From: Candidatus Parcubacteria bacterium
GTDB taxonomy: Bacteria; Patescibacteriota; Minisyncoccia; Phycocordibacterales; JAKFXT01
Direction of reading: 5' to 3'
DNA length: 64,000 bases
Assembly (NCBI GenBank): GCA_021414235.1
Contig: JAIOOV010000003.1
Coordinates: 37,560-101,559, forward strand
Part shown: piece after piece, positions 4,619 through 62,756 of the stretch
Layout: every line of letters begins with the position of its first letter
How positions within the stretch are numbered: position 1 is the stretch's first letter
The notes under the pieces: model-generated
What the model saw: only the letters and a program-made list of their open reading frames with translations
Told to the model about the DNA's origin: nothing
Databases searched by the model: none
Translations under genes and position numbers: made by a program

Positions 4619-4627
4619 TGTGGATAA
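4619..4627 (+). promoter_or_regulatory. Perfect DnaA box (TGTGGATAA, equal to TTATCCACA on the other strand) in an AT-rich 400-bp intergenic region.
   Basis: Exact 9-mer, extended match TGTGGATAAC shared with sites at 53610 and 62748. Confidence 0.45.
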
Positions 4628-4657
4628 CTTCGTATAAAAAATAAAATAGAAAATATT

Positions 4658-4684
4658 TGTGCGTAAAAAAATATTTTACGCACA
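4658..4684 (-). terminator. Terminator hairpin downstream of murB.
   Basis: TGTGCGTAAAA-aaata-TTTTACGCACA, 11-bp stem, A/T-rich flank, 9 nt after the murB stop. Confidence 0.5.
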
Positions 4685-4692
4685 CGTAATTT

Positions 4693-5709
4693 TTATTTCT
4701 CTATGAAGCGAACTTCAGGTTCAAGCTCGATACCGCACTCTTCACGCACGCGTCGTATCACCTCTTCCGCAAGAACTCGCACCTCTTCCGCGCGTGCACC
4801 AGGCTCTGCAACTACAACAAATGCTTGTTTTTCAAAGAGACGCACGCGGCCTAAAGCATATCCGCGTAACCCCAGCACCTTATCCATTATCCAAGCAGCC
4901 GGCACTTTGACACCCGCAGTCTCCGGCATATCAAAAAGAGGCATCGAGGGATACCGAGCTTGGAGAGCCAGCGCTTCTGCCTTAGGCAATATGGGATTCT
5001 TGAAGAAAGAACCCGCCGTTCCCTCTTTGGAGAGATCCGGGAACTTCTCACGACGGATTTGAAGTACCGCTTCGCGAATATCAATAAGAGAAGGAGAACT
5101 CTCCCCAAAACGCACCGTCAGATCCTTATACGAAAGATTCGGTTGCGACTCCCGAGAGAGAGCGAACGAAGCCGAAAGGACGATGTGCGCTCCGCCATCA
5201 TGCTTGAAGAAACTGTCCCGGTAATCGAAAGAGCAGTCCTGTACTGAAAAAGTGCGAACCTGGCCACTCTTCGTATCGAGTACCTCAGCGCTCTCCAGTA
5301 CTTCAGAGATAGCCGCTCCGTAGGCGCCGATATTCTGAACAACCGCGCCTCCTACCGAACCAGGGACACCCGAGAGGTTCTCCAAGCCCCACAATCCCCA
5401 CTCGACCGTCCGTGCGACGAGCTCATCCCAGGAAACGCCTGCACCAGCACGCACGAGAGGAACACCATCTCTCTCCTCCAGGCGTATGCCGCCCATATCC
5501 ATCTTAATGACCAATCCGCGCCAACCTTCATCAGCGATGAGCACGTTGGAGCCGCCCCCGAGGATGAACATAGGGAGATTCTTCGACGCGGCAAAACGGC
5601 AGGCCTCCTCGAGCTCCGAGAGAGTAGCGGCTTCTACGAAAAAATCAGCCTTCCCGCCGATGCGGAAGGTGGTATAGGGGGCAAGCAGTACGTCAGAGAG
5701 AAGGCGCAT
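4693..5709 (-). CDS. murB: UDP-N-acetylenolpyruvoylglucosamine reductase MurB.
   Basis: LLAPYTTFRIGGKADFF FAD-binding N-terminus typical of MurB, 338 aa. Confidence 0.95.
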   Translation of the reverse strand: MRLLSDVLLAPYTTFRIGGKADFFVEAATLSELEEACRFAASKNLPMFILGGGSNVLIADEGWRGLVIKMDMGGIRLEERDGVPLVRAGAGVSWDELVARTVEWGLWGLENLSGVPGSVGGAVVQNIGAYGAAISEVLESAEVLDTKSGQVRTFSVQDCSFDYRDSFFKHDGGAHIVLSASFALSRESQPNLSYKDLTVRFGESSPSLIDIREAVLQIRREKFPDLSKEGTAGSFFKNPILPKAEALALQARYPSMPLFDMPETAGVKVPAAWIMDKVLGLRGYALGRVRLFEKQAFVVVAEPGARAEEVRVLAEEVIRRVREECGIELEPEVRFIEK

Positions 5710-5718
5710 AGGTTACGG

Positions 5719-5787
5719 CGAGATATGGCTCCCGGGTGCTAGCTCCAAAGAATATCTAATGTGAGTGCAGCCGGGAGCCATATCTCG
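5719..5787. promoter_or_regulatory. Perfect 17-bp inverted repeat (CGAGATATGGCTCCCGG ... CCGGGAGCCATATCTCG, 35-nt spacer) beginning 10 nt upstream of the murB start codon.
   Basis: Read directly from the sequence: arms at 5719-5735 and 5771-5787. A shorter palindrome GCTAACAcTTGTTAGC lies at ~5870-5886. Confidence 0.5.
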
Positions 5788-5828
5788 GCACAACTAGAGA
5801 CATGATAGCAAAAAACGCTCGGGCGCGT

Positions 5829-17766: not shown

Positions 17767-19782
17767 CTATTCGAGCAGGCGCTTGAGTTCGTCTTCGGGT
17801 ACTTCGCGTACATGCGAAGCCTTGGGTCTTGGGGCAGGACGCTCAGCGGCTTGATTCGACTCAGGAGGATCTTCCCTTCTCTCTTCCTTCGGAAGCGGAT
17901 TAGGGGGAACAGGAGTCGCTTTCGGAGCAGAAGCTAGGCCGCTTGGATTCTGTTTCTTGAGGGCCTCCTGGAGCGCAGCATGGAGGAGCTCTTTGTTGGC
18001 GGTCTTGCCGCCGCGGACTTCCCCTTTCGGCTGGGGAGGTTTCCTGAGGCTTTCGTTCTGGGAAGGCTCGGATGAACGACTCGGGGCCGTTTTAGTCACA
18101 GGAGGACGCGGGGCTTGAGGCGCAGGCGTCTGGCTCTCTGACCTCGGAGGAGACGAGTCGCGTGGCGGTCTCGGCATCTCCGGCGGACGAACGACGGAGG
18201 GTTTCTCTACGGGAGGTCGATGAGCGGGTGCCGCAGCGGGAGGCACTTTGGGAATAGACGGTATGGAAGAAGCGTCTTCCTTTACCACAGAAGCAAGCAC
18301 CGCACGAAGGCCAGTGAGATGCTGCTTGGATTCAAAATTCTCGCGCTCTGCTTCGCGCACCAGCGCGGACGGAACGCGAGGGGCGTCTTCCCTCACAGAA
18401 GGCGGACGAGGCGTAGCTATAGGAGTCGGACGCGGAGCCGAGGTGGAAGCCGAAGGACCAGCAGCCTCTTTCGGCTTGAGGCTCGCCACCACCGCAGACG
18501 ACTGGGTCTGTTCAGCGATACTCACCTCCACCTGTGCACGCGGCTTAGCATAGACCATGCGCGAATTAGCGATGACACTATCCCTGAAAGAAAGCGCGGG
18601 AGCGGGTATCGGCGGCATGGTAGTGGCAGAAAAAGGCGTAGAGCTGACTCCGTCGATCATGAGCTTAAGATATATCTGGCGTATCCCTAGGTTCACGATG
18701 TCTTCGGCCAGGAAGTGTGGAGCGAACTCCTTCTCGAAGAGCTCTGCATCGATTGCCCCCACGCGGAAGGCGATCAGGGTACCGACGTTGCCGATGACTG
18801 CGGCACGCACTTCTTCCGACATCTGCTCCACGTACTGATGGGCGATGGTCAGATTCAACTTATACTTGCGCGCCTCCGAGAGGATGTCTGCGAAGGACTC
18901 GTTGGCGAAGGACTGGAATTCGTCCACGTAGAGATAGAAATTCGGGAGCTTAGCGAGCTTGTCTGCCGGCACATCCGCGCGGCTCATGGCCGCGAGATAT
19001 ATCTTGGTAATGAGCATGCTACCGAGGAGATTGGCATTGCTCTCCCCCACCTTGCCCTTAGAGAGGTTGATGATGAGGATCTTCTTCTCATCCATCATCT
19101 TACGGATATCAAAGGTGGAATTCTCCTGACCCACGATATTGCGGATGAGCGGATTAGAGGTGAACTGTCCCACTTTGTTCTGGATGGCAGGGGTCGCCTC
19201 CGCTGCGAACTTGTCCGTATACTTGGCGAACTCATCCACCCAGAAGGATTTGGTTCCGGGATCCTTCACCGACTCCACCACCTTGTTGCGGAACGCTTTG
19301 TCCGTGAGCATCTTGTTGATACCCATCATGGTGGCGCCGGGGAATTCAAGAAGAGCCAGCACCGTGTTCTGGAGGATGTACTCCATACGCGCAGACCAGG
19401 CATCCTCCCAGATCTTGTGGAAGGCACTCATGAGACCGGAGACCACTAAATGACGACGATCCGCACCGATATCCTCGATGACGTTGAAGCCGATGGGGTA
19501 CTCCATGTCGAAGGGCGCGAAATACAAAACATCCTTCACGCGATCTTCCGGTATGTAATCGAGGAGCTTCTCCGCAGTGCCGCCGTGCGGGTCGATGAAG
19601 GCGAGACCATCCCCATTCTGGATGTCCTGGATTGCCATGTTCTCGAGCAGGGTCGATTTACCCATGCCCGTCTTGCCGATGACGTAGACGTGCTTGGTAC
19701 GGTCCACCGCCTTGATGCCGAAGGGCACCTTCTTATTGCGCGTGTCGGTCAGGCCGAAATAGGTGATGCGATTGTCGTCCAT
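17767..19782 (-). CDS. Soluble VirD4/TraG/TrwB-like (type IV coupling protein family) P-loop ATPase with a ~260-aa proline-rich disordered C-terminal tail.
   Basis: Walker A IGKTGMGKST, Walker B LYVDEFQSF, TraG-D_C-like block KYKLNLTIAHQYVEQM...IGNVGTLIAFRVG. No N-terminal TM helices. Tail PRPTPIATPRPPSVREDAPRVP... Confidence 0.65.
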   Translation of the reverse strand: MDDNRITYFGLTDTRNKKVPFGIKAVDRTKHVYVIGKTGMGKSTLLENMAIQDIQNGDGLAFIDPHGGTAEKLLDYIPEDRVKDVLYFAPFDMEYPIGFNVIEDIGADRRHLVVSGLMSAFHKIWEDAWSARMEYILQNTVLALLEFPGATMMGINKMLTDKAFRNKVVESVKDPGTKSFWVDEFAKYTDKFAAEATPAIQNKVGQFTSNPLIRNIVGQENSTFDIRKMMDEKKILIINLSKGKVGESNANLLGSMLITKIYLAAMSRADVPADKLAKLPNFYLYVDEFQSFANESFADILSEARKYKLNLTIAHQYVEQMSEEVRAAVIGNVGTLIAFRVGAIDAELFEKEFAPHFLAEDIVNLGIRQIYLKLMIDGVSSTPFSATTMPPIPAPALSFRDSVIANSRMVYAKPRAQVEVSIAEQTQSSAVVASLKPKEAAGPSASTSAPRPTPIATPRPPSVREDAPRVPSALVREAERENFESKQHLTGLRAVLASVVKEDASSIPSIPKVPPAAAPAHRPPVEKPSVVRPPEMPRPPRDSSPPRSESQTPAPQAPRPPVTKTAPSRSSEPSQNESLRKPPQPKGEVRGGKTANKELLHAALQEALKKQNPSGLASAPKATPVPPNPLPKEERREDPPESNQAAERPAPRPKASHVREVPEDELKRLLE

Positions 19783-19818
19783 AGAAAGAAAGTCCCAGAT
19801 AGTATACCAAAAATAATT

Positions 19819-19846
19819 CGGGACCCCACTTTTCAGCGGGGTCCCT
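19819..19846 (-). terminator. Terminator hairpin.
   Basis: GGGACCCC-acttttcagc-GGGGTCCC preceded on the plus strand by an A-run (U-run on the minus strand). Confidence 0.5.
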
Positions 19847-19851
19847 TCTGA

Positions 19852-20052
19852 TCATCTTAATTTCCACCGGTTGTGGGTACGATCGTACTGTTTGACCATC
19901 TCTCGGTAGACGGGCTCCATCTGAGCAAGGCCCGGCGAGTAGCCGACAAGCGGCTTTCCACTCTCCAACACCTCTATCATTTCGCCCACATGGCGGGGAT
20001 CCATGCGTCCGACGTAGCCTCCCCAGATAGCTTGGAGGGCTTCGAGCGGCAA
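19852..20052 (-). CDS. Hypothetical small soluble protein (66 aa).
   Basis: ORF track; flanked by the terminator; no recognisable motifs. Confidence 0.35.
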   Translation of the reverse strand: MPLEALQAIWGGYVGRMDPRHVGEMIEVLESGKPLVGYSPGLAQMEPVYREMVKQYDRTHNRWKLR

Positions 20053-20134
20053 TTCATCGATTTCGATCAGAATCCTCCAGGAAAGAGCAGAGGCCGATAT
20101 TACCCTCTTCGACTTCGAATAGGCAAGCCTTCGG

Positions 20135-21355
20135 TTACTTCTCTAAAACCTGCCGCAGACTCGTGTATTTATTCGCCGCATCCCAGAAGATCCAGGACGT
20201 AAGCCCTGCGTCATACGTCGCCTGTATCTGCGCCTTCACCATCTCCGGAGTGTAGGGTACCGGGTAATCGAAGCTTTGGAGCCAGGGGCGCATCTTCGTA
20301 CGATCGTATGAAGGCTTAGCGTAGAGCTGCGGCGAAGTCGAAGCGATTAAGGTATGAGTGAGGGCTGCCACAATAGTCGTAGTGCCAGCCGCGCGGTCCG
20401 CTGCTCTCTTCATGGAAAACTGCACGATGTTGTAGGCATTAGCATTCACGTTCTTGTAGCCGTTGAAGCCTGTGGGATAGTGCGAGGGATAGACCATCGG
20501 ATAGATGTAGTCGAAGTACGGCAGCGCGCGCTCCAAAACCTGGCCGATGTTGAGATCATCCACATTAGTGGCGGTCATGCCGAAGAGATCCGCGGAGAGG
20601 ACTGCGCCCGTCGGGCGGAGCTTCTCACTGAGATATTTGAAAAACTCCTCGAGCGCCTCTGGCTTGCTCTTACCCTTGCTCCAAGTGTAATCCGCCTCCG
20701 CCATGGGGCCGTCGGAGGGGAAGCGTACGTAATCGAAATTGAGCTCGTCGAAGCCGAGCTCGTAGGAAATCTTGCCGAGCTCCACTACGTGATCCCAGTA
20801 CGGACGAGCACCGACATCCACGAAGGCGAGCCCCTTGTTGTCCTTCCAGACTCCCCCGCTCTTCTTCTGTACCGCCTGCTCCGGATACTGCGAAGTGTAG
20901 TAGGGGTTCTGGAACGTGGTAATGCGACCAATGACGAAGATGCCTTTCTCATGGAGCGAAGCGATGAACTCCTTCATATCCTTGGCGCCACAGGCGTCGG
21001 AGACGGAATCCTTCAATAGCGGATTGTCCGTAGGAAAGGAGATCTTGCCGGTGAAATCGCGGATATCGATGATGATCGCGTTAAGCTCTGTATCTTCCAC
21101 TAGCTTCACCAGGCCGTTGCGGATGGATGGAGTACCAGAAACACACTGGCTCATGTAGATGGCCTTGAGAGGTTCCGGAGCAGGTAGATGCTTGGCGGCA
21201 GGAAGAGTCGGCTTTAGAGGAGTCGAGCTTGCTACGGATACTTCAGCTGCAGCCGCCGGAGCATTCTCGTAGGTAATAGGGGTGAGATATGGAAAAGCAG
21301 AGACACCCGCAAGGAGGAGAAGAGCGGGTAAAGCGATGATCGGAAGAAATCGCAT
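20135..21355 (-). CDS. Secreted TIM-barrel glycoside-hydrolase-like protein (GHL/DUF4015-type family).
   Basis: Signal peptide MRFLPIIALPALLLLAGVSA; NAIIIDIRDFTGKISF, GIFVIGRITTFQNPYY blocks. Confidence 0.55.
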   Translation of the reverse strand: MRFLPIIALPALLLLAGVSAFPYLTPITYENAPAAAAEVSVASSTPLKPTLPAAKHLPAPEPLKAIYMSQCVSGTPSIRNGLVKLVEDTELNAIIIDIRDFTGKISFPTDNPLLKDSVSDACGAKDMKEFIASLHEKGIFVIGRITTFQNPYYTSQYPEQAVQKKSGGVWKDNKGLAFVDVGARPYWDHVVELGKISYELGFDELNFDYVRFPSDGPMAEADYTWSKGKSKPEALEEFFKYLSEKLRPTGAVLSADLFGMTATNVDDLNIGQVLERALPYFDYIYPMVYPSHYPTGFNGYKNVNANAYNIVQFSMKRAADRAAGTTTIVAALTHTLIASTSPQLYAKPSYDRTKMRPWLQSFDYPVPYTPEMVKAQIQATYDAGLTSWIFWDAANKYTSLRQVLEK

Positions 21356-21358
21356 GAC

Positions 21359-21616: not shown

Positions 21617-21645
21617 ACGATTATACGACAGCGCTTTTTTCTGCG

Positions 21646-45530: not shown

Positions 45531-45679
45531 GTCAGGAGATCTATGAATCACTACTTTGTTGTCTTACTTACCTGCCCCTCTCCATCGCCCTAAAAGACCC
45601 TTAAGCCCCGCTTGCGCGGGAAAAGGAGGCGGCGTGAGGGAATGAAGTTGTCAACGTTCGTGGATTCGGTCGATTCTCC

Positions 45680-45896: not shown

Positions 45897-46583
45897 CTAC
45901 TTGTCTGCGAGTTCCTTGCGGGTGCGGTCGATGAGCTTGGCTGCTGCATCCTGGCCGCCGAGGCCGAAGGCGAGGCCCACCGCGATGGAGATGGCCACCA
46001 CGAAGCCAGTGAAGAGTGTCTGGACAAAAGGAGCCGCCACGCCGAGCTGATAGAGCGCGGTAAGGATGGCGAAGATCCAGATGGACCACTTGGTCACTCC
46101 CGCGAGGAAGTTGGCCGAGGAGACGCCGGCCGCGCGCGCAGCGCCACCCACCACTTCCTTCATAGTCTCAGCCACCACGCCTGCCACAAGGAGGACAAGG
46201 ATGGCTACGATGACCTGCGGCAAGTAGAGGAGCACTACCTGCTGGAGGAAGATGTTCACCTGCACCAGACCCAAGACATCAAAAGATGCGATGAGGAAAG
46301 AAACGATGACAAACCACTCCACGAGGAGGCCCAAGAACTTACCGGAATTGAGCCTAAAGCCCGCACGAGAGACGAGCACGCCGATACCAGCGCCCTCGAG
46401 CACCTCGTCGATGCGGAGCATGTCGATCACTCGAGCGATCGCACGCGCGAGGAGAGAGCCCACCACCCAACCGGCGAGGAAGATGATGACTGCTAATAAG
46501 ACCTTCGGCAGGAAGGCCACGAGCCCGAAACCGAGATCCTGGAACGAGCGCAAGAGCACGTCGCCCCACATTTCAAGTGCCAT
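45897..46583 (-). CDS. Membrane protein with repeated 'conserved TM helix' motifs (MscS-family N-terminal-like), hypothetical.
   Basis: Five or six TM helices; start at MALEMW (residue 13; the track ORF starts at a TTG). Confidence 0.55.
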   Translation of the reverse strand: MALEMWGDVLLRSFQDLGFGLVAFLPKVLLAVIIFLAGWVVGSLLARAIARVIDMLRIDEVLEGAGIGVLVSRAGFRLNSGKFLGLLVEWFVIVSFLIASFDVLGLVQVNIFLQQVVLLYLPQVIVAILVLLVAGVVAETMKEVVGGAARAAGVSSANFLAGVTKWSIWIFAILTALYQLGVAAPFVQTLFTGFVVAISIAVGLAFGLGGQDAAAKLIDRTRKELADK

Positions 46584-46655
46584 ACGTATGTTAAACGCGA
46601 CCGCATGATAGCGGCGCAACTATGCTAGTAAAGAACAATGAAATTGTAGCACCCT

Positions 46656-47279
46656 CTAGACACGCGCTGCAGCACGTCGTGTGGATAAGCCAGTCTGCCG
46701 AGCGAGGTCGTAACGATCAACGATGACCCGATGCGGGTAATCAAACACATCGCGCACGAGCTTGTCATAGATATTCAAACGATAGTCGAAGTCCGCACCA
46801 GAGAGCACCGCATAGCGGAGCTCTCTGGTGCACTCGAGCTCGAGTTCGCGCACCGCCTTCTCCAGATGCTTCCTCTTAAGCTTGTCCCCCACGATAAGGA
46901 GATCGAGACGGCTCTCCGGATTGTCCACGAAGAAGCCAGCGGAAACCAGGAGCTTCATCGTGCCCGCCTTAGTGAAGCGCTCCTTAAGCTGGGCATCCCC
47001 GAAAGGGGCTATCTCTCGTACCAGCTCGCGGAGGACATCCGCATGCGGGAACTGACGGTTGAGAGAGAGCCTGACCTCCTTCTTGCCGCGGAGCGGGGTG
47101 CGCTCCATGACGAGCCCCATGCTCTTGAGGGAGGAGAGTTCCCGACGAGCTTTCTTAGCGTCTACGCCGGTGCGCTTGCGGATATGTTCCCCATCGAAAG
47201 CAGTAGTCGGATTGAACAGGAAGAGACGAAGGAGCTTAGCCATGCGTTCTCCACCGAAGAGCTTAGGGGCGATATCCAT
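46656..47279 (-). CDS. Hypothetical protein with putative N-terminal winged-helix DNA-binding region.
   Basis: ORF track; LLRLFLFNPTTAFDGEHIRKRTGVDAKKARRELSSLKSMGLVME resembles a wHTH. Confidence 0.5.
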   Translation of the reverse strand: MDIAPKLFGGERMAKLLRLFLFNPTTAFDGEHIRKRTGVDAKKARRELSSLKSMGLVMERTPLRGKKEVRLSLNRQFPHADVLRELVREIAPFGDAQLKERFTKAGTMKLLVSAGFFVDNPESRLDLLIVGDKLKRKHLEKAVRELELECTRELRYAVLSGADFDYRLNIYDKLVRDVFDYPHRVIVDRYDLARQTGLSTRRAAARV

Positions 47280-49677: not shown

Positions 49678-52600
49678 TTACTTGGAGATGGTGACGGAAT
49701 CCATGTTGTCGGACGGAAGGCCCGAGACAAAGTATCCGTTGGTCCAGTCGTTGCCAGTCGTAGCAGACGTGGTGGTCGAGTTCGGAGACCAGACGAAGTC
49801 GTCATTGCCATCCGCATCGATTGCCACAGCGTCATCCATGAGAGCGGCGAGAGACGGGTATGCCGCATCTCCATCGATCTTAGTGATGACCTGACCGCTG
49901 GTTACGCCGCCCGTGAGAGTGACATCACCCTGTACCTTGAAGTAGTAGGTGCTGCCAGTCGGGATGCGGAAGTAGCCAGAGGAAGCGCCCGTTACAAGCA
50001 CATCGTTAGCACCGCTCGAGACGAGTCCGGCGATAGTCGTGTTGACCTGACCAGAAGTGGTGAAGCCAGAGACTGCCGAGCTGAACGAGCTATCGGTGTA
50101 GGCCATGATCTTGAGGTTCGTCACGGTCGTGGAAGAAGTTCCAGACGGAGTGGACGAAGTCGAGACGTTGACCGTGAACTTGTAGATGGAGACTCCGTCG
50201 CTGCCGGCCTGACCAGTAGAGGTCACGCTGAAGCGGTAGAGATCCATGCCGGACTGCGTGCTGAGGACGCTATTCGGGATGCTCAAGCGAGCAAATACCG
50301 GATAGGACTTCATGACGCGGATGCCGTCAACGTCGGAGTCCGAAGAGGAACCGGTGTTGAGGGTGGTGCCGGATTCAACGCCCGTACCCTGGGTACCCGT
50401 CGAGTCGTTGCCATCGTAGTCAACCTTCACGAGGTGACCAGAGGAAGTGGCGTTCTGGCCAGTACCAACGGTGCTCAGGTCAACCTTGACGGTGATGAGC
50501 TTGGTGCTGTCCTTAGGGACGCGGAAGGACTGGGTAAGAGTCGAGGTAGCCGTGCGATTCTCACCGGTGAAGGTGGCCTCGCCGACCTTAGTGGAGCCAT
50601 CCCAGAGGGAGACCTTCGTAAGGTGAGACGGGGTGCTCGAAGCGGCTACGCCCGAGAGCTGGAGAGCAACACGAGTGATGTCTACAGCTTCGTTGGTGCC
50701 TGCGAAGCGGAGTACGCCTGCAGTGACACCGGAAGTTCCGCCAGCCGCGATCTGGTAAGACGGGCTAGAAGAATCCTTGGTAACAGTGAACGAACCTGCG
50801 CCGATGGTCTGAGTCTGACCGGTAGCAGCCGTGACAGTCTCAGAGACGTCAGCAGAGGACGTTACGCCAGTGACCGTGATGGAAGGAGACGATGCGATAC
50901 CCCACGAGAAGGTGTTGTTCGTCACAGCAGAAGCCGAGACGTTACACTTAAGCGTAAGAGTCTTGATCGTGCCCTTCGAAACCACGAGGGACTGGTCGAA
51001 GGTGTAAGTCGCAGAGCCAGAAGCCGACGGATTGACCACGTTCGAGCTGTTGAGCGCGGTGGTGCCGTCGTAAAGCTGACAAGACGAGAGAGAGGTGGCT
51101 ACAGCCGATCCGCCGAGCGTGAGCGTAAGCGGGATCGAAGAGAAGCGCACATCCTCGCCAGACTGAGTCGCGTCAAGCTGGACGTTCGTGAAGATACGAG
51201 ACTGTCCACCAGGAACGATGGTCTGAGCAGCCGGATCGGACGAGATCGTGATGGCAAGAGCTGCGCCCTTGACCGTCATGGTGTTCATCGCGAACTGACC
51301 GTTCGAGAGAGTGATGCTGTTACCAGTAGTCTGACCGCGAACCGTCGTCCAGTTGTCCGAAGGAGTAGTGGACGCGATGTAGGTCGAGTTAGAGGCAACA
51401 CCAGTCGGGACCTTACCCTTGAGGGTGTAGGTCTGCTTGCCAACCGGGTAGGTGATGGTGTCCGAGAAGACAACCTTCTGGTTCGTACCGCCTACGGCAG
51501 TTGCATCTACCGGACCTGCGACGACCGCACCGTTCGAGTCAACGAGGGTAACGTTCGTGAGGAGAGCAGAAGAAGCTGCACCGGAAGTGGTGAAGTAGAA
51601 GGTAGAAGACTGGACAGTGATCGCCTCGCCCTTGATGTCGGTCTCATAGCCGCCGAGTACCTGGTTAGGCACGTTGACAGCGATGTTCTGAGAAGCGACA
51701 GAGGTGGCCTTGGCGATCGTGGTTGCAGTACCGCCAGTGACGGTCACGAGAGAACCGTGGAACCAAGGGGTACCAGCGGTGAACTCAGACGTGCTGTCGG
51801 AAGCAGAGCTTGCGCCAGCCGGAGGAGTCACGCCGTAACCGTAGGTCTCGCCAGTTGCGTAGACGTCAGTGCGGTTTGCGATGTCGAAGCGGACCGTGCG
51901 GCCAGCAGCGTTGCCACCGACGATGTCACCCTGGATGTAGATATCCTTGGAGAGACCCTTGTCGATGACGAGACCGGAGCCGAAGGAAGCAGTGACATAC
52001 TTACCATCTGCAGAAACCATGGTGTCGTAGCTCGTGCCATCTACGAAGACCTTGATGTTAGCGAGGTCAGTCGTGAGAGAAGCAGAACCGGCCTGGTTCC
52101 AACGAACGGACCAGAGGCGGAGCTTCTCGGCAGAACCCGCGGTGACGCGGACGCCGGCAAACTTGTAGCCAGTGGTGCCGATCTCCTTGCTTGCCGAAGT
52201 GTTCGGGTCAAACGAAGAGACAGCGTTGGTGATAGTACCGATTGTGAGAGACGCGTTGATGGTGTGACCTGCGCCGGCGATCGGGAGCGAGCCAGAGACC
52301 GTAGCAGAGGTGTTCACTGCGACGACCGAGAGCATTGCTACCTGACCAGCGTAGGAGTCAAGCGTCGAAGCCATGTTACCAGCGACAGTCACCGTCTTAG
52401 AAGTTCCCTTCTTGACGACGAACGGCTCGCCTACAGTAGCCTGGTTGTTCGAGTTGAGAGTCTTTGCGATGCCGATCTGAGTACCGTTCTCATCGAGGAG
52501 GACGATACCGTCGAAGACGGCGTTCTGAGCGAGACCGCCGCGCTCAACCACAAGGCTGTTGACCGTCACATCACCATCGTTAGACGCGGTGAGGACGACC

Positions 52601-53178
52601 TTGGTGAAGGGAACGCGAGAAGCGTTCTCAGGAGCCAAGGAAGCCGCAGGCTGAGTTGCCGCAGAGATCGAGAGACCCGTACCGGCAGGAGTGGTGGGAG
52701 TGGTAGGGGTAGTAGGGGTGGTCGGAGTCGTCACCACGACCAAGGAGTTGAGCTTGGCGCGGGTGAGCGGACCGACAGTACCCGTAGTGGAGATTCCGTA
52801 CTTAGCCTGGAGCTTCATCACTGCAGCCCGGGTAGCCGGACCGAAAGTGGTGGTTTCCATGCCAGGAGAACCTGCACCTGAGAGAGCGACGCGAGTCGCT
52901 GCATCCCTGTTGAGAGCTATCTGGAGCTGCTTCACTGCCTCGCCCTTCGAGCCGAGCTGAAGGTTAGTAGTGAAGTTGTAGCCCGTGCCAGCAGTAGAGC
53001 CGCCCGTGTTGAGCTGACCCTGAAGCTGGGAAATCATCGCCAAGAGGCTGGCAATCTGCGCCTGAAGCTCTTCAGCAGTGGCCGCGTTTGCAGACGACGG
53101 CGCAACTACGAAGGACAGGGCCATTGCGAAGCCCACAAAACCGGCGACTACTTTCGCAGTTTTCGATTTTAATGCCAT
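49678..53178 (-). CDS. Giant (1166 aa) secreted cell-surface protein: signal peptide, peptidoglycan-binding domain, (TPT)n linker, then ~900 aa of Thr/Ser/Gly-rich Ig-like/beta repeats (S-layer or adhesin candidate).
   Basis: Signal MALKSKTAKVVAGFVGFAMALSFVVAPSSANA; PG_binding_1-like LQLGSKGEAVKQLQIALNRD...FGPATRAAVMKLQAKYGISTTGTVGPLTRAKL; TPTTPTTPTTPTTP; no Cys. Confidence 0.85.
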   Translation of the reverse strand: MALKSKTAKVVAGFVGFAMALSFVVAPSSANAATAEELQAQIASLLAMISQLQGQLNTGGSTAGTGYNFTTNLQLGSKGEAVKQLQIALNRDAATRVALSGAGSPGMETTTFGPATRAAVMKLQAKYGISTTGTVGPLTRAKLNSLVVVTTPTTPTTPTTPTTPAGTGLSISAATQPAASLAPENASRVPFTKVVLTASNDGDVTVNSLVVERGGLAQNAVFDGIVLLDENGTQIGIAKTLNSNNQATVGEPFVVKKGTSKTVTVAGNMASTLDSYAGQVAMLSVVAVNTSATVSGSLPIAGAGHTINASLTIGTITNAVSSFDPNTSASKEIGTTGYKFAGVRVTAGSAEKLRLWSVRWNQAGSASLTTDLANIKVFVDGTSYDTMVSADGKYVTASFGSGLVIDKGLSKDIYIQGDIVGGNAAGRTVRFDIANRTDVYATGETYGYGVTPPAGASSASDSTSEFTAGTPWFHGSLVTVTGGTATTIAKATSVASQNIAVNVPNQVLGGYETDIKGEAITVQSSTFYFTTSGAASSALLTNVTLVDSNGAVVAGPVDATAVGGTNQKVVFSDTITYPVGKQTYTLKGKVPTGVASNSTYIASTTPSDNWTTVRGQTTGNSITLSNGQFAMNTMTVKGAALAITISSDPAAQTIVPGGQSRIFTNVQLDATQSGEDVRFSSIPLTLTLGGSAVATSLSSCQLYDGTTALNSSNVVNPSASGSATYTFDQSLVVSKGTIKTLTLKCNVSASAVTNNTFSWGIASSPSITVTGVTSSADVSETVTAATGQTQTIGAGSFTVTKDSSSPSYQIAAGGTSGVTAGVLRFAGTNEAVDITRVALQLSGVAASSTPSHLTKVSLWDGSTKVGEATFTGENRTATSTLTQSFRVPKDSTKLITVKVDLSTVGTGQNATSSGHLVKVDYDGNDSTGTQGTGVESGTTLNTGSSSDSDVDGIRVMKSYPVFARLSIPNSVLSTQSGMDLYRFSVTSTGQAGSDGVSIYKFTVNVSTSSTPSGTSSTTVTNLKIMAYTDSSFSSAVSGFTTSGQVNTTIAGLVSSGANDVLVTGASSGYFRIPTGSTYYFKVQGDVTLTGGVTSGQVITKIDGDAAYPSLAALMDDAVAIDADGNDDFVWSPNSTTTSATTGNDWTNGYFVSGLPSDNMDSVTISK
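52692..52733 (-). repeat. In-frame tandem repeat encoding (TPT)n linker.
   Basis: GGTGGGAGTGGTAGGGGTAGTAGGGGTGGTCGGAGT on the plus strand. Confidence 0.6.
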
Positions 53179-53269
53179 ACGTTATTAATTACTGAACGAA
53201 AGATATGCAGCACGCGTTGTGCCGCATATTCCCTCGGTGTGGGATTTGACGTCGGAATCGACTTACCGA

Positions 53270-53278
53270 CTATCCACA
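53270..53278 (-). promoter_or_regulatory. Near-consensus DnaA box (cTATCCACA) in the 600-bp intergenic region.
   Basis: 8/9 match to TTATCCACA. Confidence 0.35.
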
Positions 53279-53609
53279 CTGCAACGCACACGGAGTGACC
53301 CGCACGCGCTACACAACTATCCCGTACGCTTCTCTATCTTTCGACAGAGGGCGTACAGGGTAGCTTGCGGAATGATAATGGTGGTTCGGACACGCGGTAA
53401 AAGAGAGGGATTGATCATCCATTCGGGAATGCTTTGAGTTTGGTGGTTTTCCAAACCTCTATGAAATTGTCAACGATCGTTCTTTTGAGGGCCGGTCGGA
53501 AACTTCTTCGGTATATCGGTCGTTCAGTAGTGATGACGGACACGACATAGAATATGTCGAACCGTAGCGCGAATTATAGTATTCGCCTCACTCCCCTGCA
53601 AAAGTTTTT

Positions 53610-53618
53610 TGTGGATAA
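53610..53618 (+). promoter_or_regulatory. Perfect DnaA box (TGTGGATAA) within extended motif TTTTTTGTGGATAACTCC. A degenerate copy TTTTTTGTGGGAATAAG lies at 53647-53663.
   Basis: Read directly; the same 15-mer occurs at 62742-62756. Confidence 0.45.
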
Positions 53619-53787: not shown

Positions 53788-54549
53788 TTACCGCAGAGAG
53801 TAGCGGCTCCAGCGACGCTCCCCTTCACGCTTAAGGACACCCTGAGCGACCAAGCTTCCGAGCTCGCGCTGGATGGTCTTCTCACCTACGCCCCGTATAT
53901 GGCTGGCAATGTCTTTTATACTCAACGGCAACGAGCTCCTCTTGATGAGGTCGAGAATAGAGAGGGAGCGCTCCTTGGTCACGGCAGGTTCTTGTCCTTT
54001 ATTCTGTCCCATAGAAGAAGGCGTGCGGCGCGGGAGACTGCTCGCAGGCGTAGCAAAGGTGGAAGCCGATACATAGCTCGGATCAAGCACGCTCGAGACA
54101 GGAAGGAGGCTAGGGACCGGGGGCATCGCATCAGTTTTTAAAAGCTCTTCGGAGAGAGCGATGACCGGAGCTGAGGAGAGATTCTCCGCCTTAGCGAGAA
54201 TCTCAAGCACCTGGTCGTACTCATGCTTCAGCACCTCCGCATTCATAGGAGAGATGAGGCGTGCGCCAGAGGCGATCTCGAGGAGCGAGAGAATCTCCAG
54301 GATCTTCACGGACGGAAGCATCCCGCGCATCGTAGCCGAAGAGAGGATGTCCTTAACGAGTCCCACGGAGAGCTCGCGCAAATCACGACGAAGCTTCTCC
54401 TCCTCAGAGACAAGATCTGTCACCAGGTAGACAGCGGCCGCGAGCTTCTGGCTCTTCTTGAATGCAAAGAGAAGACCGTCATTCCCCTTGAACAGGGCGG
54501 TATTCTGGTAGCTCGGAATCATCTTGTCCTTTTGTTCTGTATCGGACAT
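53788..54549 (-). CDS. Putative transcriptional regulator with C-terminal winged helix (N-terminal domain unknown).
   Basis: C-terminus LSIKDIASHIRGVGEKTIQRELGSLVAQGVLKREGERRWSRYSL (HTH plus wing). Confidence 0.55.
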   Translation of the reverse strand: MSDTEQKDKMIPSYQNTALFKGNDGLLFAFKKSQKLAAAVYLVTDLVSEEEKLRRDLRELSVGLVKDILSSATMRGMLPSVKILEILSLLEIASGARLISPMNAEVLKHEYDQVLEILAKAENLSSAPVIALSEELLKTDAMPPVPSLLPVSSVLDPSYVSASTFATPASSLPRRTPSSMGQNKGQEPAVTKERSLSILDLIKRSSLPLSIKDIASHIRGVGEKTIQRELGSLVAQGVLKREGERRWSRYSLR

Positions 54550-60113: not shown

Positions 60114-60125
60114 CCACATAATTTT

Positions 60126-60278
60126 ATGCTTATCACCATCGCCGCCCTCCTCCTCATCCTCTGGTTCCTTGGCGTCATTGGCACCTACTCCATCGGCTGG
60201 TTCGTGCACCTCCTCCTCGTGGCTGCGATCGTCATGTTCCTCATCCGGGTCATCCAAGGAGAGAATCCGTTGAAATAA
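60126..60278 (+). CDS. 50-aa two-TM small membrane protein (lmo0937-family-like).
   Basis: Manual translation MLITIAALLLILWFLGVIGTYSIGWFVHLLLVAAIVMFLIRVIQGENPLK; below the ORF-track cutoff. Confidence 0.45.
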   Translation: MLITIAALLLILWFLGVIGTYSIGWFVHLLLVAAIVMFLIRVIQGENPLK

Positions 60279-60280
60279 CA

Positions 60281-60306
60281 AAAAGCTCCCCGTATGGGGA
60301 GCTTTT
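60281..60306. terminator. Bidirectional terminator between convergent genes.
   Basis: AAAAGCTCCCC-gtat-GGGGAGCTTTT. Confidence 0.6.
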
Positions 60307-60324
60307 TGTTTTCCCTTGTCTTAG

Positions 60325-62667
60325 TTAAACGATCTCGCACGTACCTCCTGCGCACGCTAATTCCTTCTTCTGCTCCGTCTCATCCTGCATCTCGTAGGTC
60401 ACGAGCTTGGAGTAGTCGATGCTGCCGAGGCGCGAAGAGAGGAGTTCGTACGTCTCCTTGGTGCACTTCTCGTAGGGCGCCAGACGATAAACATGGTTCT
60501 CGCGCGGGAGGAAGGAGAGGCCGCCAATTATCTCCCAGTTCTTGTAGACCCAGTTGACCACGTCGATCCATTCATCGTCCCCCACCGAGATGGTGGTCGA
60601 AGGGTTATGCTCGGTGAAGTTGAGCTTGACCATCTTCCAGTACTCGAGCTGCTCGATAGCGGTCTGATCATCTTTGAAGATAGAGCCGCTCGGTGCCTTG
60701 ATCGGGAACTCCAGCACGTAGGTATTGGCGTTCTCCATGGTCTGGCCCACTTCCGGATGATACGGCACACCCTGATCCTTCATCATCTTAAAGAGCGAGT
60801 CGGTCGCAGAGATGCGCACGCGGCGGATGTAGTAGGGCGCATGGCGCGGATGCATGCCGGAAGAGCTGTTGATGGTCTGAGAGACGGTGCCAGAGGGCTT
60901 CACGCAGGTGATGGAGGAGGAGACGTTCACTCCGAAGCGCTTGGCATACTTCTGGTTCACCTTGATAGACTCATTCTTCATAGCCTTCATGGTGTCCGCA
61001 TTACGCACCGCCGGGGAGTCCCACTGGCCGGTGATGGAGACGCCGAGGAGGCGCTCCTTCTCGCAGTTGTCCTTCCATTCCTTGGAGAGGTAGCCGAAAT
61101 TAGTGAGAGTTGATTGATAGGTACCGACGAGGGTGGCGAGGCGCGTCTTCCTGAGGAGAGACTCCTTGGTGTCGCTCGCACGCGCTACCACCTCAGTGAG
61201 ATTACAGAACTGCTTGCTCTGGAGGATGATCTCGCCACAGGGGTTGGTGCCCACCTGACCGAGGCGGCCCTTGCCATACTTCTTCTCGAGGAGCTCGATA
61301 CGGCGCTTCGGCATGGTCTTCGCCAAGGATCCACGATTGAAGATGCCGCGCTCGCCGCTCTTACTCTTCATGAGAGCCACCCACTCATCCATGAGCTCTT
61401 CGGTAGAAGGCTTCTGCTCGTAGACGGCGGAGTTGTTGGAGATGGAGCGGTGTGGGTCGGTGAGGAAGAACTGACCCTTCTTGGCATCACGGATGAGATC
61501 GTCATCGAGGTCAGAGAGGGAGATCATGGCCGAGCGACGCACGCCACCTGCCACTACGCACTCACCGATCTTACAAAGGATGTCGTGGGCATCGATGTTG
61601 CGGAGGCGCCGTCCCTGGCGGGAGAGGATCGCACTGCGGGAGAAAGCGAGAAGAGACTGGAGAGGTGCCGGGCCGGAGGCCTTGCCACCCATGGTCTTGA
61701 GGCGCGCACCGGCTGGCCTGATCTGGGAATAATCAAAATCGATATCCTTGCCTGCGTACCATGTCTCAAGGCCCAAGGTGAGCGCATCGCACCAGCCCTC
61801 CTTGGAGTCGTCGACAACGTGGGTCTTCAGTTTTTCTCCGATCTGCCTCTCAATCTGCGGAAGCTGCTGGATGTTCTGGCTCTCTGCAGAGAAGCCGACG
61901 CCAGTGCCGCACATAGAGATGTACATAACCTCAGCGAAGTCCCGAAGCTTGGTGGGGGCGATAAAGGAGCAGTTGTAAGCACAGACGTTCGTCTTGGCGG
62001 CTGCCTTGCCTGCGAACTGCATGAGACGCATAGACGGCATGATCTCCTGCTTGCGGATGGCTTCGCGCACCTCATCGTACTCTTTCTTAGTGAGCTTGTC
62101 TCCCAAGTTCTGCTTCATGAAATCTATATAACGCTCCACCGTCTCCACCCAGGTCTCGCGGCGGCCTTCTGCTTCGATCCAGGAAGAGTAGCTGCGGAGA
62201 TACACGAACTCGCCGAGCGGATTGTTCTTGAAATATTTAGCGCTCTCCTCCGCGAGCTGACGCACGCGCTCCGGGACTTCCACGCCCATAGAGCGAAGCT
62301 CTGAGCGCTTCTGGCGATAGAGGATGTAGTTCTTGGCAGTCTGCACGTACTCCGAGAGGATGAGCTCCCGCTCCACCGTGTCCTGTATCCCCTCCACCGT
62401 CGGCAGGAAGTTCTTGTACTTCTTGCTGATCCTCACCAGGTCAGCAAGCACCTTGTTGGCCACGAGCGCAGCCTCGTCCACCGAACCCTCGCCGGAGGCG
62501 AGCATGGCCTTGTAGATGGCCGTCTCCACCTTGTCCATGTCGAAAGGAGCGATGGTGCCGTCGCGCTTCTGGATCTGTTTGACGAATTCGTTCGTCTTGG
62601 GCGTCCGAGCCAAGGGCACCTTTGCCTTGGGGAGAGAAGCGGAGACAGCTGTTTTGGTGAGGGTCAT
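60325..62667 (-). CDS. Ribonucleotide reductase large (catalytic) subunit with N-terminal ATP-cone; likely class II (adenosylcobalamin-dependent, NrdJ-type), since no R2 subunit gene is adjacent.
   Basis: ATP-cone VKQIQKRDGTIAPFDMDKVETAIYKA; active-site NPCGEI; C-terminal redox Cys pair CAGGTC. Confidence 0.85.
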   Translation of the reverse strand: MTLTKTAVSASLPKAKVPLARTPKTNEFVKQIQKRDGTIAPFDMDKVETAIYKAMLASGEGSVDEAALVANKVLADLVRISKKYKNFLPTVEGIQDTVERELILSEYVQTAKNYILYRQKRSELRSMGVEVPERVRQLAEESAKYFKNNPLGEFVYLRSYSSWIEAEGRRETWVETVERYIDFMKQNLGDKLTKKEYDEVREAIRKQEIMPSMRLMQFAGKAAAKTNVCAYNCSFIAPTKLRDFAEVMYISMCGTGVGFSAESQNIQQLPQIERQIGEKLKTHVVDDSKEGWCDALTLGLETWYAGKDIDFDYSQIRPAGARLKTMGGKASGPAPLQSLLAFSRSAILSRQGRRLRNIDAHDILCKIGECVVAGGVRRSAMISLSDLDDDLIRDAKKGQFFLTDPHRSISNNSAVYEQKPSTEELMDEWVALMKSKSGERGIFNRGSLAKTMPKRRIELLEKKYGKGRLGQVGTNPCGEIILQSKQFCNLTEVVARASDTKESLLRKTRLATLVGTYQSTLTNFGYLSKEWKDNCEKERLLGVSITGQWDSPAVRNADTMKAMKNESIKVNQKYAKRFGVNVSSSITCVKPSGTVSQTINSSSGMHPRHAPYYIRRVRISATDSLFKMMKDQGVPYHPEVGQTMENANTYVLEFPIKAPSGSIFKDDQTAIEQLEYWKMVKLNFTEHNPSTTISVGDDEWIDVVNWVYKNWEIIGGLSFLPRENHVYRLAPYEKCTKETYELLSSRLGSIDYSKLVTYEMQDETEQKKELACAGGTCEIV

Positions 62668-62747
62668 ACGTGGTGAGGGGGAGCTTAATGAGTAATTAAA
62701 TTGGTAAAGGTAATGACTATTCTACCCCGCCGGGAGCAGGCATTTTT

Positions 62748-62756
62748 TGTGGATAA
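62748..62756 (+). promoter_or_regulatory. Perfect DnaA box within TTTTTTGTGGATAACCCC, ~80 nt upstream of the RNR start codon.
   Basis: Read directly from the sequence. Confidence 0.45.

What the first reader, a model, noticed from the sequence alone, without database searches (positions are those of the whole stretch)
4619..62756. Recurring perfect DnaA boxes (TGTGGATAAC) confined to intergenic regions, one directly upstream of the ribonucleotide reductase gene
The exact DnaA-box 9-mer TGTGGATAA occurs three times (4619, 53610, 62748). Each time it is extended to TGTGGATAAC, always in intergenic DNA. Two sites share an 18-mer, TTTTTTGTGGATAAC(T/C)CC. The 53.2-53.8 kb region also has a degenerate copy (TTTTTTGTGGGAATAAG) and an 8/9 reverse box (cTATCCACA at 53270). 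The expected number of a random 9-mer in 64 kb is ~0.5. DnaA control of nrd genes via upstream DnaA boxes is established in E. coli, and the 62748 site sits ~80 nt upstream of the RNR start. The others lie upstream of secA/the small basic ORF and between the wHTH regulator and the giant surface-protein gene.
Basis: partly seen in the sequence, partly recalled or inferred. Interest (0 to 1): 0.5.

Follow-up and report, generated by a model that had tools for sequence, protein, structure and literature searches.

The report
Conserved DnaA-box promoter sites in CPR bacterium
Four perfect copies of the classic DnaA-binding 9-mer sit just upstream of four promoters in this small-genome (Patescibacteria/CPR) bacterium. 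All four are conserved in relatives, so they are real regulatory sites, most likely linking the ribonucleotide reductase gene and three other genes to the replication initiator DnaA.

Summary
TGTGGATAA occurs four times (4619, 46680, 53610, 62748), not three, against 0.2 expected. All copies are on one strand, reading TTATCCACA in the direction of the downstream gene.

The window comes from a Parcubacteria/Paceibacteria (CPR) genome. Every site is conserved in relatives.
- **RNR site:** 47 of 72 CPR genomes have the box (at most 1 mismatch) upstream of the reductase gene. It ends 21-25 nt before a TAnAAT -10 in promoters that lack a -35. This is the place and orientation of box 2 in the E. coli nrdAB promoter.
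- **Site 4619:** this belongs to an unannotated tiny poly-lysine ORF upstream of secA, not to secA itself. In 24 of 40 metagenomic secA loci, box, -35, -10 and ORF recur with a fixed 39-41 nt gap between box and -10.
- **Sites 46680 and 53610:** these lie upstream of an MscS-like channel gene and a giant peptidoglycan-binding protein gene. They stay perfect, with 29-31 nt spacing, in relatives with only 62-74% protein identity.

The extended consensus gTTATCCACAg equals E. coli oriC boxes R1 and R4.

DnaA as the binding protein is inferred, not shown. Verdict: DnaA-type promoter operators, a known kind, newly seen in CPR.

The parts
62748..62756 (-). DnaA-type box 4 (TTATCCACA on the - strand, preceded by G), 81 nt upstream of the RNR ATG, in the divergent region between the RNR gene and ORF92
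   Evidence: Conserved in L003 (90% RNR identity) and in 47 of 72 CPR RNR loci.
62719..62724 (-). -10-like hexamer TAGAAT of the RNR promoter, 23 nt after the box; no recognisable -35
   Evidence: TAnAAT lies 20-25 nt after the box in 27 of 43 loci. The best -35 match is 1-2 of 6 in most.
60325..62667 (-). Class II-type ribonucleotide reductase with an N-terminal ATP-cone (780 aa); downstream target of box 4
   Evidence: Pfam ATP-cone, RNR_Alpha, RNR-II_ins_dom, Ribonuc_red_lgC.
53610..53618 (-). DnaA-type box 3, directly after the terminator of the 253-aa HTH gene and 8-9 nt upstream of the -35
   Evidence: A perfect box is conserved in L163, L166 and L170.
53573..53602 (-). Promoter of the giant-protein transcript: -35 TTTGCA/TTGCAG and -10 TATAAT (53573-53578), 31 nt after the box, followed by a ~390-nt leader
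   Evidence: 10 of 12 consensus matches. Alignment A1 shows the box, -35 and TATAATTCnCGCTACGG as conserved islands.
49678..53178 (-). 1166-aa secreted protein with a PG_binding_1 domain; downstream target of box 3
   Evidence: Pfam. Synteny HTH253 - giant gene in L163, L166 and L170.
46680..46688 (-).
   Evidence: Perfect box in L163, L164, L165, L166, L168, L170 and L172; relaxed TTTTCCACA in L171; spacing 29-31 nt.
46643..46648 (-). -10-like hexamer TACAAT of the MscS-like gene promoter
45897..46583 (-). MscS-like small membrane protein (228 aa by homologue length); downstream target of box 2
   Evidence: Pfam MS_channel_1st_1. Homologues are 225-232 aa.
4619..4627 (-). DnaA-type box 1, after the murB terminator and 18 nt upstream of the -35 of the tiny-ORF promoter
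   Evidence: Box, promoter and tiny ORF recur in 24 of 40 metagenomic secA loci, plus L048 and L029.
4572..4600 (-). Promoter of the tiny ORF: -35 TTGCGG (4595-4600), 17-nt spacer, -10 GATAAT (4572-4577). The gap from box end to -10 is 41 nt.
   Evidence: the gap is 39-41 nt in 24 of 25 loci.
4401..4448 (-). Unannotated tiny Lys-rich ORF (MAKKKKAKKAAKKKR), preceded by a ~120-nt leader containing GGTCG (4490-4494) and followed by a hairpin terminator (4356-4368)
   Evidence: No Pfam or NCBIfam family. Seven tiny-ORF peptides (six homologues from related loci and the window's own 34-aa reading) are absent from the protein collection.

Best explanation
The four TTATCCACA 9-mers are promoter-proximal operator sites of the DnaA-box type in a Parcubacteria/Paceibacteria (CPR) genome. 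Each lies upstream of, and points the same way as, a sigma-70-like promoter.

Taking the -10 hexamer as -12 to -7, the inferred box positions are:
- about -44 to -36 at the ribonucleotide reductase promoter, which has no -35 hexamer;
- about -52 to -44 at the MscS-like and giant PG-binding-protein promoters;
- about -62 to -54 at the promoter of a tiny poly-lysine ORF upstream of secA.

The most likely mechanism is as follows. Monomeric DnaA domain IV binds the single asymmetric 9-mer and, from these positions next to RNA polymerase, modulates transcription. Activation or recruitment is the more likely mode, as at the high-affinity boxes of E. coli nrdAB. This would tie dNTP supply and a few other genes to the level or nucleotide state of the replication initiator.

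Shown here: the sites are non-random, conserved, orientation-specific and at fixed distances from promoter elements. Inferred: that DnaA is the binder, and the sign of regulation.
For: - **Statistics:** 4 copies against 0.2 expected, all on one strand. Three lie in the 10% of the window that is non-genic.
- **RNR site:**
  - In 72 CPR RNR loci, the forward box (at most 1 mismatch) occurs within 250 nt upstream in 47 (perfect in 15). The reverse orientation occurs in 4 (perfect in 1), and coding controls give 0-5.
  - The top 7-, 8- and 9-mers upstream of RNR are all sub-words of GTTATCCACAG.
  - TAnAAT starts 20-25 nt after the box in 27 of 43 loci.
  - The -35 region matches only 1-2 of 6 positions.
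- **Tiny ORF site:** 24 of 40 metagenomic secA loci have a tiny Lys-rich ORF, and every one of them has the forward box (22 perfect). Among the 16 loci without the ORF, one (L105) has a one-mismatch forward box and none has a perfect one. The gap from box to -10 is 39-41 nt in 24 of 25 loci.
- **Sites 2 and 3:** the boxes stay perfect in relatives of 62-74% MscS-like protein identity and very different GC (43-46% against 55%), while the flanks diverge. Spacing is 29-31 nt.
- **Match to DnaA boxes:**
  - The 9-mer is identical to the canonical box, and the flanks are those of E. coli oriC R1 and R4 (gTTATCCACAg).
  - Mismatches are tolerated at positions 1, 3, 5, 6 and 9 but not at 2, 4, 7 or 8.
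  - It is a single asymmetric site without a partner half-site.
- **E. coli parallel:** the nrdAB promoter reads GTTATCCACAaaGTTATGCACTTGCAA-17-TATCTT. Box 2 ends 22 nt before the -10, in the direction of transcription. DnaA control of nrdAB is established, and proposed for B. subtilis and Caulobacter (PMC8203912).
- **Specificity:** across 1.92 Mb of CPR loci, 54 of 61 perfect boxes lie outside long ORFs. There are none in 43 kb of unrelated CPR loci.
Against: - No CPR dnaA gene or oriC could be retrieved, so it is not shown that this lineage's DnaA recognises this 9-mer or that the same word marks its origin.
- Each promoter has a single box. E. coli nrdAB has two high-affinity boxes plus a DnaA-ATP site.
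- The three spacing classes (23, 31 and 40 nt) differ by 8 and 9-10 bp, so the boxes are not all on one helical face. This is not what a single rigid activation geometry predicts.
- The four targets have no obvious common link to replication apart from RNR.
- About a third of CPR RNR loci have no box within 250 nt at the 1-mismatch threshold.
- The sign of regulation is not determinable from sequence.
Confidence: 0.78

Rival explanations
1. The 9-mer is the operator of a different, possibly CPR-specific, transcription factor that happens to share the DnaA-box sequence. One candidate would be a relative of the winged-helix protein encoded next to site 3 (53788-54549).
For: No direct evidence ties DnaA to the sites. 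The targets other than RNR (a channel, a surface protein, a tiny basic peptide) are not classical DnaA targets. The 253-aa HTH gene is syntenic with site 3 in L163, L166 and L170.
Against: - The core and both flanking bases are identical to E. coli R1 and R4.
- The position and orientation match the E. coli nrd DnaA box.
- A single asymmetric 9-mer without a second half-site is unusual for dimeric HTH regulators.
- The box occurs at RNR and tiny-ORF promoters in scores of genomes where the HTH gene is not nearby.
Confidence: 0.12
2. The boxes are DnaA-binding sites that serve replication control rather than transcription. They would act as titration or reservoir sites (datA- or DARS-like) or as remnants of an origin.
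For: High-affinity boxes outside oriC titrate DnaA in E. coli (general knowledge; PMC5742627 listed). Four perfect boxes in 58 kb is dense for a genome that may be about 1 Mb.
Against: - There are no clusters. Each site is a single box 7-42 kb from the next, and no dense cluster was found in any CPR locus held.
- There is no dnaA or dnaN in the window and no skew inflection.
- Fixed spacing to the -35 and -10 elements and strict co-orientation with the downstream gene are not needed for titration.
Confidence: 0.05
3. The copies arise by chance, or are part of a dispersed repeat or mobile-element end.
For: Sites 53610 and 62748 share 15-18 nt, which might suggest a repeat.
Against: - 0 of 100 shuffles reach 4 copies.
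- The four sites share only 9-15 nt and have no flanking direct or inverted repeats.
- All four are conserved at orthologous positions in diverged genomes.
Confidence: 0.01
4. The 9-mer is a core promoter element read by RNA polymerase or a sigma factor itself (an unusual -35 or UP element) rather than by a separate protein.
For: At RNR promoters the box replaces a missing -35 at a nearly fixed distance.
Against: The distance to the -10 falls in three classes: 21-25, 29-31 and 39-41 nt. In the last two, a separate -35 hexamer is present. Only 4 of the window's many promoters carry the box.
Confidence: 0.04

Closest known systems
E. coli nrdAB promoter DnaA boxes (Tuggle & Fuchs 1986; Augustin et al. 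1994; Olliver et al. 2010, as reviewed in PMC8203912)
   Same: There is a TTATNCACA box preceded by G, oriented with transcription and abutting the -35 position. Box 2 ends 22 nt before the -10, against 21-25 nt in CPR. The downstream gene encodes ribonucleotide reductase.
   Different: - E. coli has two adjacent high-affinity boxes plus a DnaA-ATP site, and a recognisable -35 (TTGCAA). CPR promoters have one box and no -35.
- The enzyme is class Ia nrdAB in E. coli. Here it is a class II-type single-chain RNR with an ATP-cone.
- Fis, IciA and NrdR inputs are known in E. coli. No NrdR box is present here.
DnaA as a transcription factor with a dispersed regulon (B. subtilis: Goranov 2005, Ishikawa 2007 PMC2533591; Caulobacter: Hottes 2005)
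   Same: DnaA boxes lie in intergenic promoter regions of a handful of genes outside oriC. RNR genes are among the proposed targets.
   Different: The stable sites in B. subtilis are clusters of several boxes, whereas here each promoter has a single perfect box. The target set (tiny Lys-rich ORF, MscS-like protein, PG-binding giant protein) has no counterpart in those regulons.
oriC high-affinity boxes R1 and R4 of E. coli
   Same: The sequence is identical, including flanks: gTTATCCACAg.
   Different: These sites are not at an origin. There is no box cluster, no AT-rich unwinding element and no dnaA or dnaN nearby.
Class I / class II activator sites (CRP paradigm)
   Same: The sites are centred near -40 (overlapping the -35 zone of a promoter that lacks a -35) and near -57, at fixed distances. 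This is the geometry expected of an RNAP-contacting activator.
   Different: The site is an asymmetric monomer site. A third spacing class, centred near -48, is not in helical phase with the others. No evidence of activation exists.

Membership tests
DnaA box (DnaA domain IV binding site) | Asymmetric 9-bp word matching TTATCCACA / TT(A/T)TNCACA | tested here: met
   There are four perfect copies in the window. Orthologous copies in relatives are perfect or have 1 mismatch.
DnaA box (DnaA domain IV binding site) | Flanking context of high-affinity boxes (G before, often G after, as in oriC R1/R4) | tested here: met
   The top enriched 9-mers upstream of CPR RNR genes are GTTATCCAC and TATCCACAG. 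E. coli R1 is ttgTTATCCACAggg and R4 is gagTTATCCACAgta. In the window, three of the four boxes are preceded by G (46680 by C) and none is followed by G.
DnaA box (DnaA domain IV binding site) | Pattern of tolerated substitutions (variable position 5 and partly 3; stringent T2, T4, A7, C8) | tested here: inconclusive
   One-mismatch variants at RNR promoters fall at positions 1, 3, 5, 6 and 9 and never at 2, 4, 7 or 8. This is consistent, but the set was selected for at most 1 mismatch, and G at position 3 differs from the E. coli A/T rule.
DnaA box (DnaA domain IV binding site) | Bound by the organism's DnaA protein | not testable with these tools
   This needs EMSA, footprinting, or ChIP/DAP-seq.
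DnaA box (DnaA domain IV binding site) | Same word clustered at the organism's own oriC or dnaA promoter | not tested
   No CPR dnaA locus was found among the ~170 loci held. Attempts through T4SS-neighbourhood loci and an exact look-up failed.
DnaA-regulated nrd promoter (E. coli nrdAB type) | Box(es) directly upstream of or overlapping the -35, oriented with transcription, upstream of an RNR gene | tested here: met
   In the window, the box ends 23 nt before TAGAAT. In CPR relatives the gap is 20-25 nt. E. coli box 2 ends 22 nt before the -10.
DnaA-regulated nrd promoter (E. coli nrdAB type) | Two high-affinity boxes plus a DnaA-ATP-specific box | tested here: not met
   CPR RNR promoters have a single box. 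The second, one-mismatch copy at 62921 is not conserved in L003.
DnaA-regulated nrd promoter (E. coli nrdAB type) | Transcription responds to DnaA level or nucleotide state | not testable with these tools
   This needs an experiment.
oriC / DnaA-box cluster (datA, DARS, B. subtilis DBCs) | Several boxes within a few hundred bp, an AT-rich unwinding element, and usually dnaA or dnaN adjacent | tested here: not met
   Boxes are 7-42 kb apart. No clusters of at least 3 boxes occur in the window. There is no dnaA or dnaN and no skew switch.
NrdR operator | Tandem 16-bp palindromes acaCwAtATaTwGtgt upstream of nrd genes | tested here: not met
   There are 0 matches with up to 3 mismatches anywhere in the window. 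The enriched words upstream of RNR are not palindromic.
Dispersed repeat / mobile-element terminal repeat | Extended similarity beyond the core; paired inverted or direct repeats | tested here: not met
   Only 9-15 nt are shared between sites, and there are no flanking repeats.

The most novel reading that the evidence does not exclude
In Paceibacteria (CPR), DnaA doubles as one of the few global transcription activators of a minimal genome. It would act from single high-affinity boxes placed at three fixed promoter registers, centred near -40, -48 and -57.

Its most strictly conserved target would not be nrd. It would be an unannotated 13-80-aa poly-lysine peptide gene with a structured GGUCG-containing leader, usually just upstream of a leaderless secA. 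That peptide could be a replication-coupled nucleoid- or ribosome-binding factor specific to this radiation.
Probability: 0.3. Interest if true: 0.65.

Novelty: new member of a known kind. Interest (0 to 1): 0.45.

Why it matters
Almost nothing is known about transcription control in the Candidate Phyla Radiation. These organisms are uncultured, with ~1-Mb genomes and few regulators.

A small regulon defined by a universally recognisable operator, and conserved across the class, gives a directly testable handle. DnaA from these organisms can be expressed and tested on four defined sites.

The result also extends the link between DnaA and ribonucleotide reductase, which is established only in E. 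coli and proposed in two other model bacteria, to a deeply divergent lineage and to a different RNR class. That suggests the coupling is ancient or repeatedly selected.

As by-products, the analysis exposes an unannotated, widely conserved micro-ORF with a structured leader. It also gives a first picture of CPR promoter architecture: TTGTAT-17-GATAAT, G-TAnAAT promoters without a -35, and a probably leaderless secA.

Tried and rejected
1. **Reaching a CPR dnaA or oriC locus**, to test whether the same word marks the origin.
   - A scan for clusters of at least 3 boxes found nothing origin-like in CPR loci.
   - A bioRxiv report (10.1101/2025.01.22.634366) says dnaA lies near T4SS genes in Paceibacterota. 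I therefore fetched neighbourhoods of homologues of the window's T4SS coupling-protein-like gene. They showed conserved murD-murC-DUF4015 synteny but no dnaA.
   - An exact look-up of SecA, to walk off the window's edge, was not on record.
2. **An upstream second RNR promoter.** The recurring TTCTAA just 5' of the box in several relatives is the stop-codon region of the upstream DUF192 gene. Rejected.
3. **NrdR boxes.** None found.
4. **Helical phasing of the three spacing classes.** The box centres differ by 8 and about 10 bp, so they are not consistently in phase. I make no phasing claim.
5. **Family assignment of the tiny Lys-rich ORF.** There are no Pfam or NCBIfam hits, the exact sequences are not in the protein collection, and there is no Rfam match for its leader.
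6. **GGGAGTGAGGC.** This 11-mer occurs exactly at 4310 and 53585. I considered it as a second shared regulatory motif. It is kept in L170 but lost in L166, so it remains unresolved.
7. **Other perfect boxes in relatives.** They lie upstream of a TPR protein, a pilin-like protein, bPH, a sigma-r4 protein and PadR genes. No further recurrent target emerged.

Full report
**1. What is in the sequence**

TGTGGATAA occurs four times in the window, at 4619, 46680, 53610 and 62748. All copies are on the + strand. Dinucleotide shuffles give an expectation of 0.20, and 0 of 100 shuffles reach four.

Almost all genes in these regions are on the - strand. Each copy therefore reads TTATCCACA in the direction of the gene downstream of it. 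Three copies lie in the 10% of the window that is non-genic. The fourth lies in the last codons of a 207-aa ORF.

The four sites share only 9-15 nt and are not flanked by repeats. One-mismatch copies are barely enriched.

**2. Where the window comes from**

- The RNR protein's relatives are nearly all Patescibacteria/CPR MAGs: Paceibacteria, Kaiser-, Taylor-, Vogel- and Wolfebacteria.
- A 100%-identical protein is recorded by NCBI for a 'Candidatus Parcubacteria bacterium' on a 139-kb contig.
- The window has unlinked rRNA genes (23S-5S at 41.8-45.5 kb, 16S at 31.8-33.3 kb).
- There is no dnaA or dnaN (Pfam scans) and no GC-skew switch.

**3. The RNR site (62748)**

I fetched 80 loci encoding relatives of the RNR from species-representative genomes.

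- In the 72 CPR loci with usable upstream sequence, a forward box with at most 1 mismatch lies within 250 nt of the start codon in 47. It is perfect in 15. The reverse orientation occurs in 4 (1 perfect), and two coding control windows give 0 and 5.
- Without using the box as a criterion, the most frequent non-trivial 7-, 8- and 9-mers in these upstream regions are all sub-words of GTTATCCACAG.
- A TAnAAT hexamer, usually preceded by G, starts 20-25 nt after the box in 27 of 43 loci, and 23 nt after it in the window.
- The place where a -35 should be is T- or A-rich and matches TTGACA at only 1-2 positions.
- Taking the -10 as -12 to -7, the box therefore occupies about -44 to -36 of a promoter without a -35.
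- In the closest relative (L003, 90% RNR identity, GC 63%), the box and the -10/leader are conserved blocks. A one-mismatch copy at 62921 is not conserved.

**4. Comparison with E. coli**

The nrdA upstream region of MG1655 reads gaGTTATCCACAaaGTTATGCACTTGCAAgagggtcattttcacacTATCTT. It has two boxes in the direction of transcription. The second abuts the -35 and ends 22 nt before the -10. This is the same place and orientation as the CPR box.

DnaA control of nrdAB in E. coli is established, and it is proposed for B. subtilis and Caulobacter (review PMC8203912). E. coli oriC R1 and R4 read tgTTATCCACAgg and agTTATCCACAgt, so the CPR extended consensus gTTATCCACAg has the same flanks.

No NrdR-type palindrome exists anywhere in the window.

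**5. The 4619 site**

This box follows the murB terminator. It is followed, on the - strand, by:
1. 18 nt, then TTGCGG (-35);
2. 17 nt, then GATAAT (-10);
3. a ~120-nt leader;
4. a tiny ORF, MAKKKKAKKAAKKKR (4448 down to 4401);
5. a hairpin terminator;
6. secA, whose ATG lies 6 nt after a TAGCAT hexamer.

A distant relative (L048, GC 35%) has the same arrangement with the same 41-nt gap between box and -10.

A scan of metagenome contigs with SecA gave 40 loci with usable upstream sequence. Of these, 24 have a Lys-rich micro-ORF (13-78 aa, starting MA(A)KKK) upstream of secA. All 24 have a forward box 100-230 nt upstream of that ORF (mostly 130-200 nt), and 22 of the boxes are perfect. Of the 16 loci without the ORF, one (L105) has a one-mismatch forward box and none has a perfect one.

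The gap from box end to -10 is 39-41 nt in 24 of 25 promoters, with a TTGTAT-like -35 located 17 nt before GATAAT. So this box belongs to the tiny ORF's promoter (box at about -62 to -54), not to secA.

The ORF has no Pfam or NCBIfam family and is not in the protein collection.

**6. Sites 46680 and 53610**

Homologues of the MscS-like protein led to syntenic contigs. The shared order is ftsK / HTH253 / giant PG-binding protein / TPR / L10 / L12 / ORF195-207 / MscS-like.

- **Box upstream of the MscS-like gene:** it is perfect in L163 and L164 (98% identity), L165, L166 and L168 (73-74%), L170 (68%) and L172 (62%). It is TTTTCCACA in L171 (66%, GC 34%). In every case it lies 29-31 nt before a TAnnAT hexamer.
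- **Box between HTH253 and the giant gene:** it is perfect in L163, L166 and L170, 30-31 nt before TATAAT.
- **Alignment A1:** the box, the -35 and TATAATTCnCGCTACGG stand out as conserved islands in otherwise diverged DNA.
the 8/9 reverse box at 53270 and the 'degenerate copy' near 53655 are already changed in the 98% strain. Both are chance.

**7. Specificity**

In 1.92 Mb of CPR loci, 54 of 61 perfect boxes lie outside long ORFs. Part of this is ascertainment, because the loci were chosen around two targets. Two unrelated CPR loci totalling 43 kb contain none.

**8. Interpretation**

All four boxes are functional, conserved, orientation-specific promoter-proximal elements. Their identity with the canonical DnaA box, including flanks, points to DnaA as the binder. 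So do the single asymmetric site and the parallel with E. coli nrd. This step is inferred, because I could not obtain a CPR dnaA or oriC locus and binding cannot be tested here.

The absence of a -35 at the RNR promoters, and the position of the other boxes upstream of (not over) the core promoter, favour activation over repression. This too is inference.

The library holds no paper combining Patescibacteria with DnaA boxes. One Peregrinibacteria genome paper mentions DnaA-box-like repeats near the origin (PMC4736985).

**9. Verdict**

This is a known kind of element (DnaA acting as a promoter-proximal regulator, with nrd as the classical target) found in a new lineage. It has a new, strictly conserved target (the poly-Lys micro-ORF) and an informative promoter geometry. 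Interest is moderate.

Noticed in passing
window 4401-4571 (- strand); also L048 15660-15900 and L083-L122 upstream of secA: The unannotated tiny Lys-rich ORF has a 50-150-nt leader with a recurring GGTCG pentamer 32-64 nt (106 and 101 nt in L094 and L097) before the ATG. In MFE folds, the pentamer sits unpaired just 5' of the 3' strand of a closing stem whose sequence differs between genomes (for example GCAATAA/TTATTGC, GTGAA/TTCAC, GCATCG/CGATGC). This may be a new cis-regulatory RNA motif. There is no Rfam match.
   Followed up: partly
window 4288-4300 (- strand); L048 15990-16011: The secA ATG lies 6 nt (window, TAGCAT) or 8 nt (L048, TAAAAT) after a -10-like hexamer, behind a terminator. 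secA may be transcribed as a leaderless or near-leaderless mRNA.
   Followed up: no
window 4310-4320 and 53585-53595 (- strand): The exact 11-mer GGGAGTGAGGC occurs twice, each time between a -35-like and a -10-like element (the secA promoter and the giant-protein promoter). It is nearly kept in L170 (GGGAGTGGCGC) but not in L166. Its meaning is unknown.
   Followed up: partly
window 53179-53572 (- strand): A ~390-nt leader precedes the 1166-aa PG-binding protein gene. It contains blocks conserved with L166, including the hairpin GGTTTGG...CCAAACT and GTCGnTAnGTCGAT. This could be a structured 5' UTR or a small RNA.
   Followed up: no
window 42214-45536 (23S rRNA, - strand); L163 13910-14745: The 23S gene is about 400 nt longer than the Rfam model. 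The 98%-identical sister strain has an extra 836-nt insertion with a LAGLIDADG homing-endonuclease ORF at the position equivalent to about window 42601. The window in turn has ~100 nt extra at about 44120-44256, which is where ARAGORN calls a spurious 'tRNA-???'.
   Followed up: partly
window 29331-45536: The rRNA genes are unlinked. 23S-5S is followed by ~8.5 kb of protein genes (FtsW/RodA, glycosyltransferases, epimerase, secDF), then 16S. tRNA-Ile lies a further 2.4 kb downstream.
   Followed up: no
L040, L041, L042, L055 (Gammaproteobacteria/Legionellales MAGs), L063 (Chlorobi-like MAG): RNR proteins 63-66% identical to the CPR enzyme occur in non-CPR MAGs. This suggests horizontal transfer of this ATP-cone class II-type RNR. 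L041 also carries dnaA with classical boxes upstream.
   Followed up: no
window 62668-62718 (- strand) and RNR 5' UTRs in L003, L029, L032, L038, L051, L065: An A/T word resembling ATTATTAA(T/A)AA recurs in the RNR 5' UTR shortly before the start codon. This was seen by eye in the listing. It could be a translation or second regulatory signal.
   Followed up: no
window 17767-26622; L173, L174: The T4SS coupling-protein-like ATPase (671 aa) sits in a conserved block, murD-like / murC-like / TP_methylase / DUF4015 / ATPase, next to variable glycosyltransferase genes. No other T4SS genes are nearby.
   Followed up: no
L171 380-5321: A Campbellbacteria-like contig has three perfect boxes within 5 kb. 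One lies 28 nt before a TATAAT upstream of a 168-aa gene and a 1288-aa LTD-domain protein. This hints that large surface proteins are recurrent box-associated genes.
   Followed up: no
L107 12055-12100: A small cluster, TTATCCACA-11 nt-TTTATCCATA-3 nt-TTTTACACA, lies just upstream of a gene whose product starts with an excisionase/MerR-like HTH. It is divergent from another small HTH gene.
   Followed up: no
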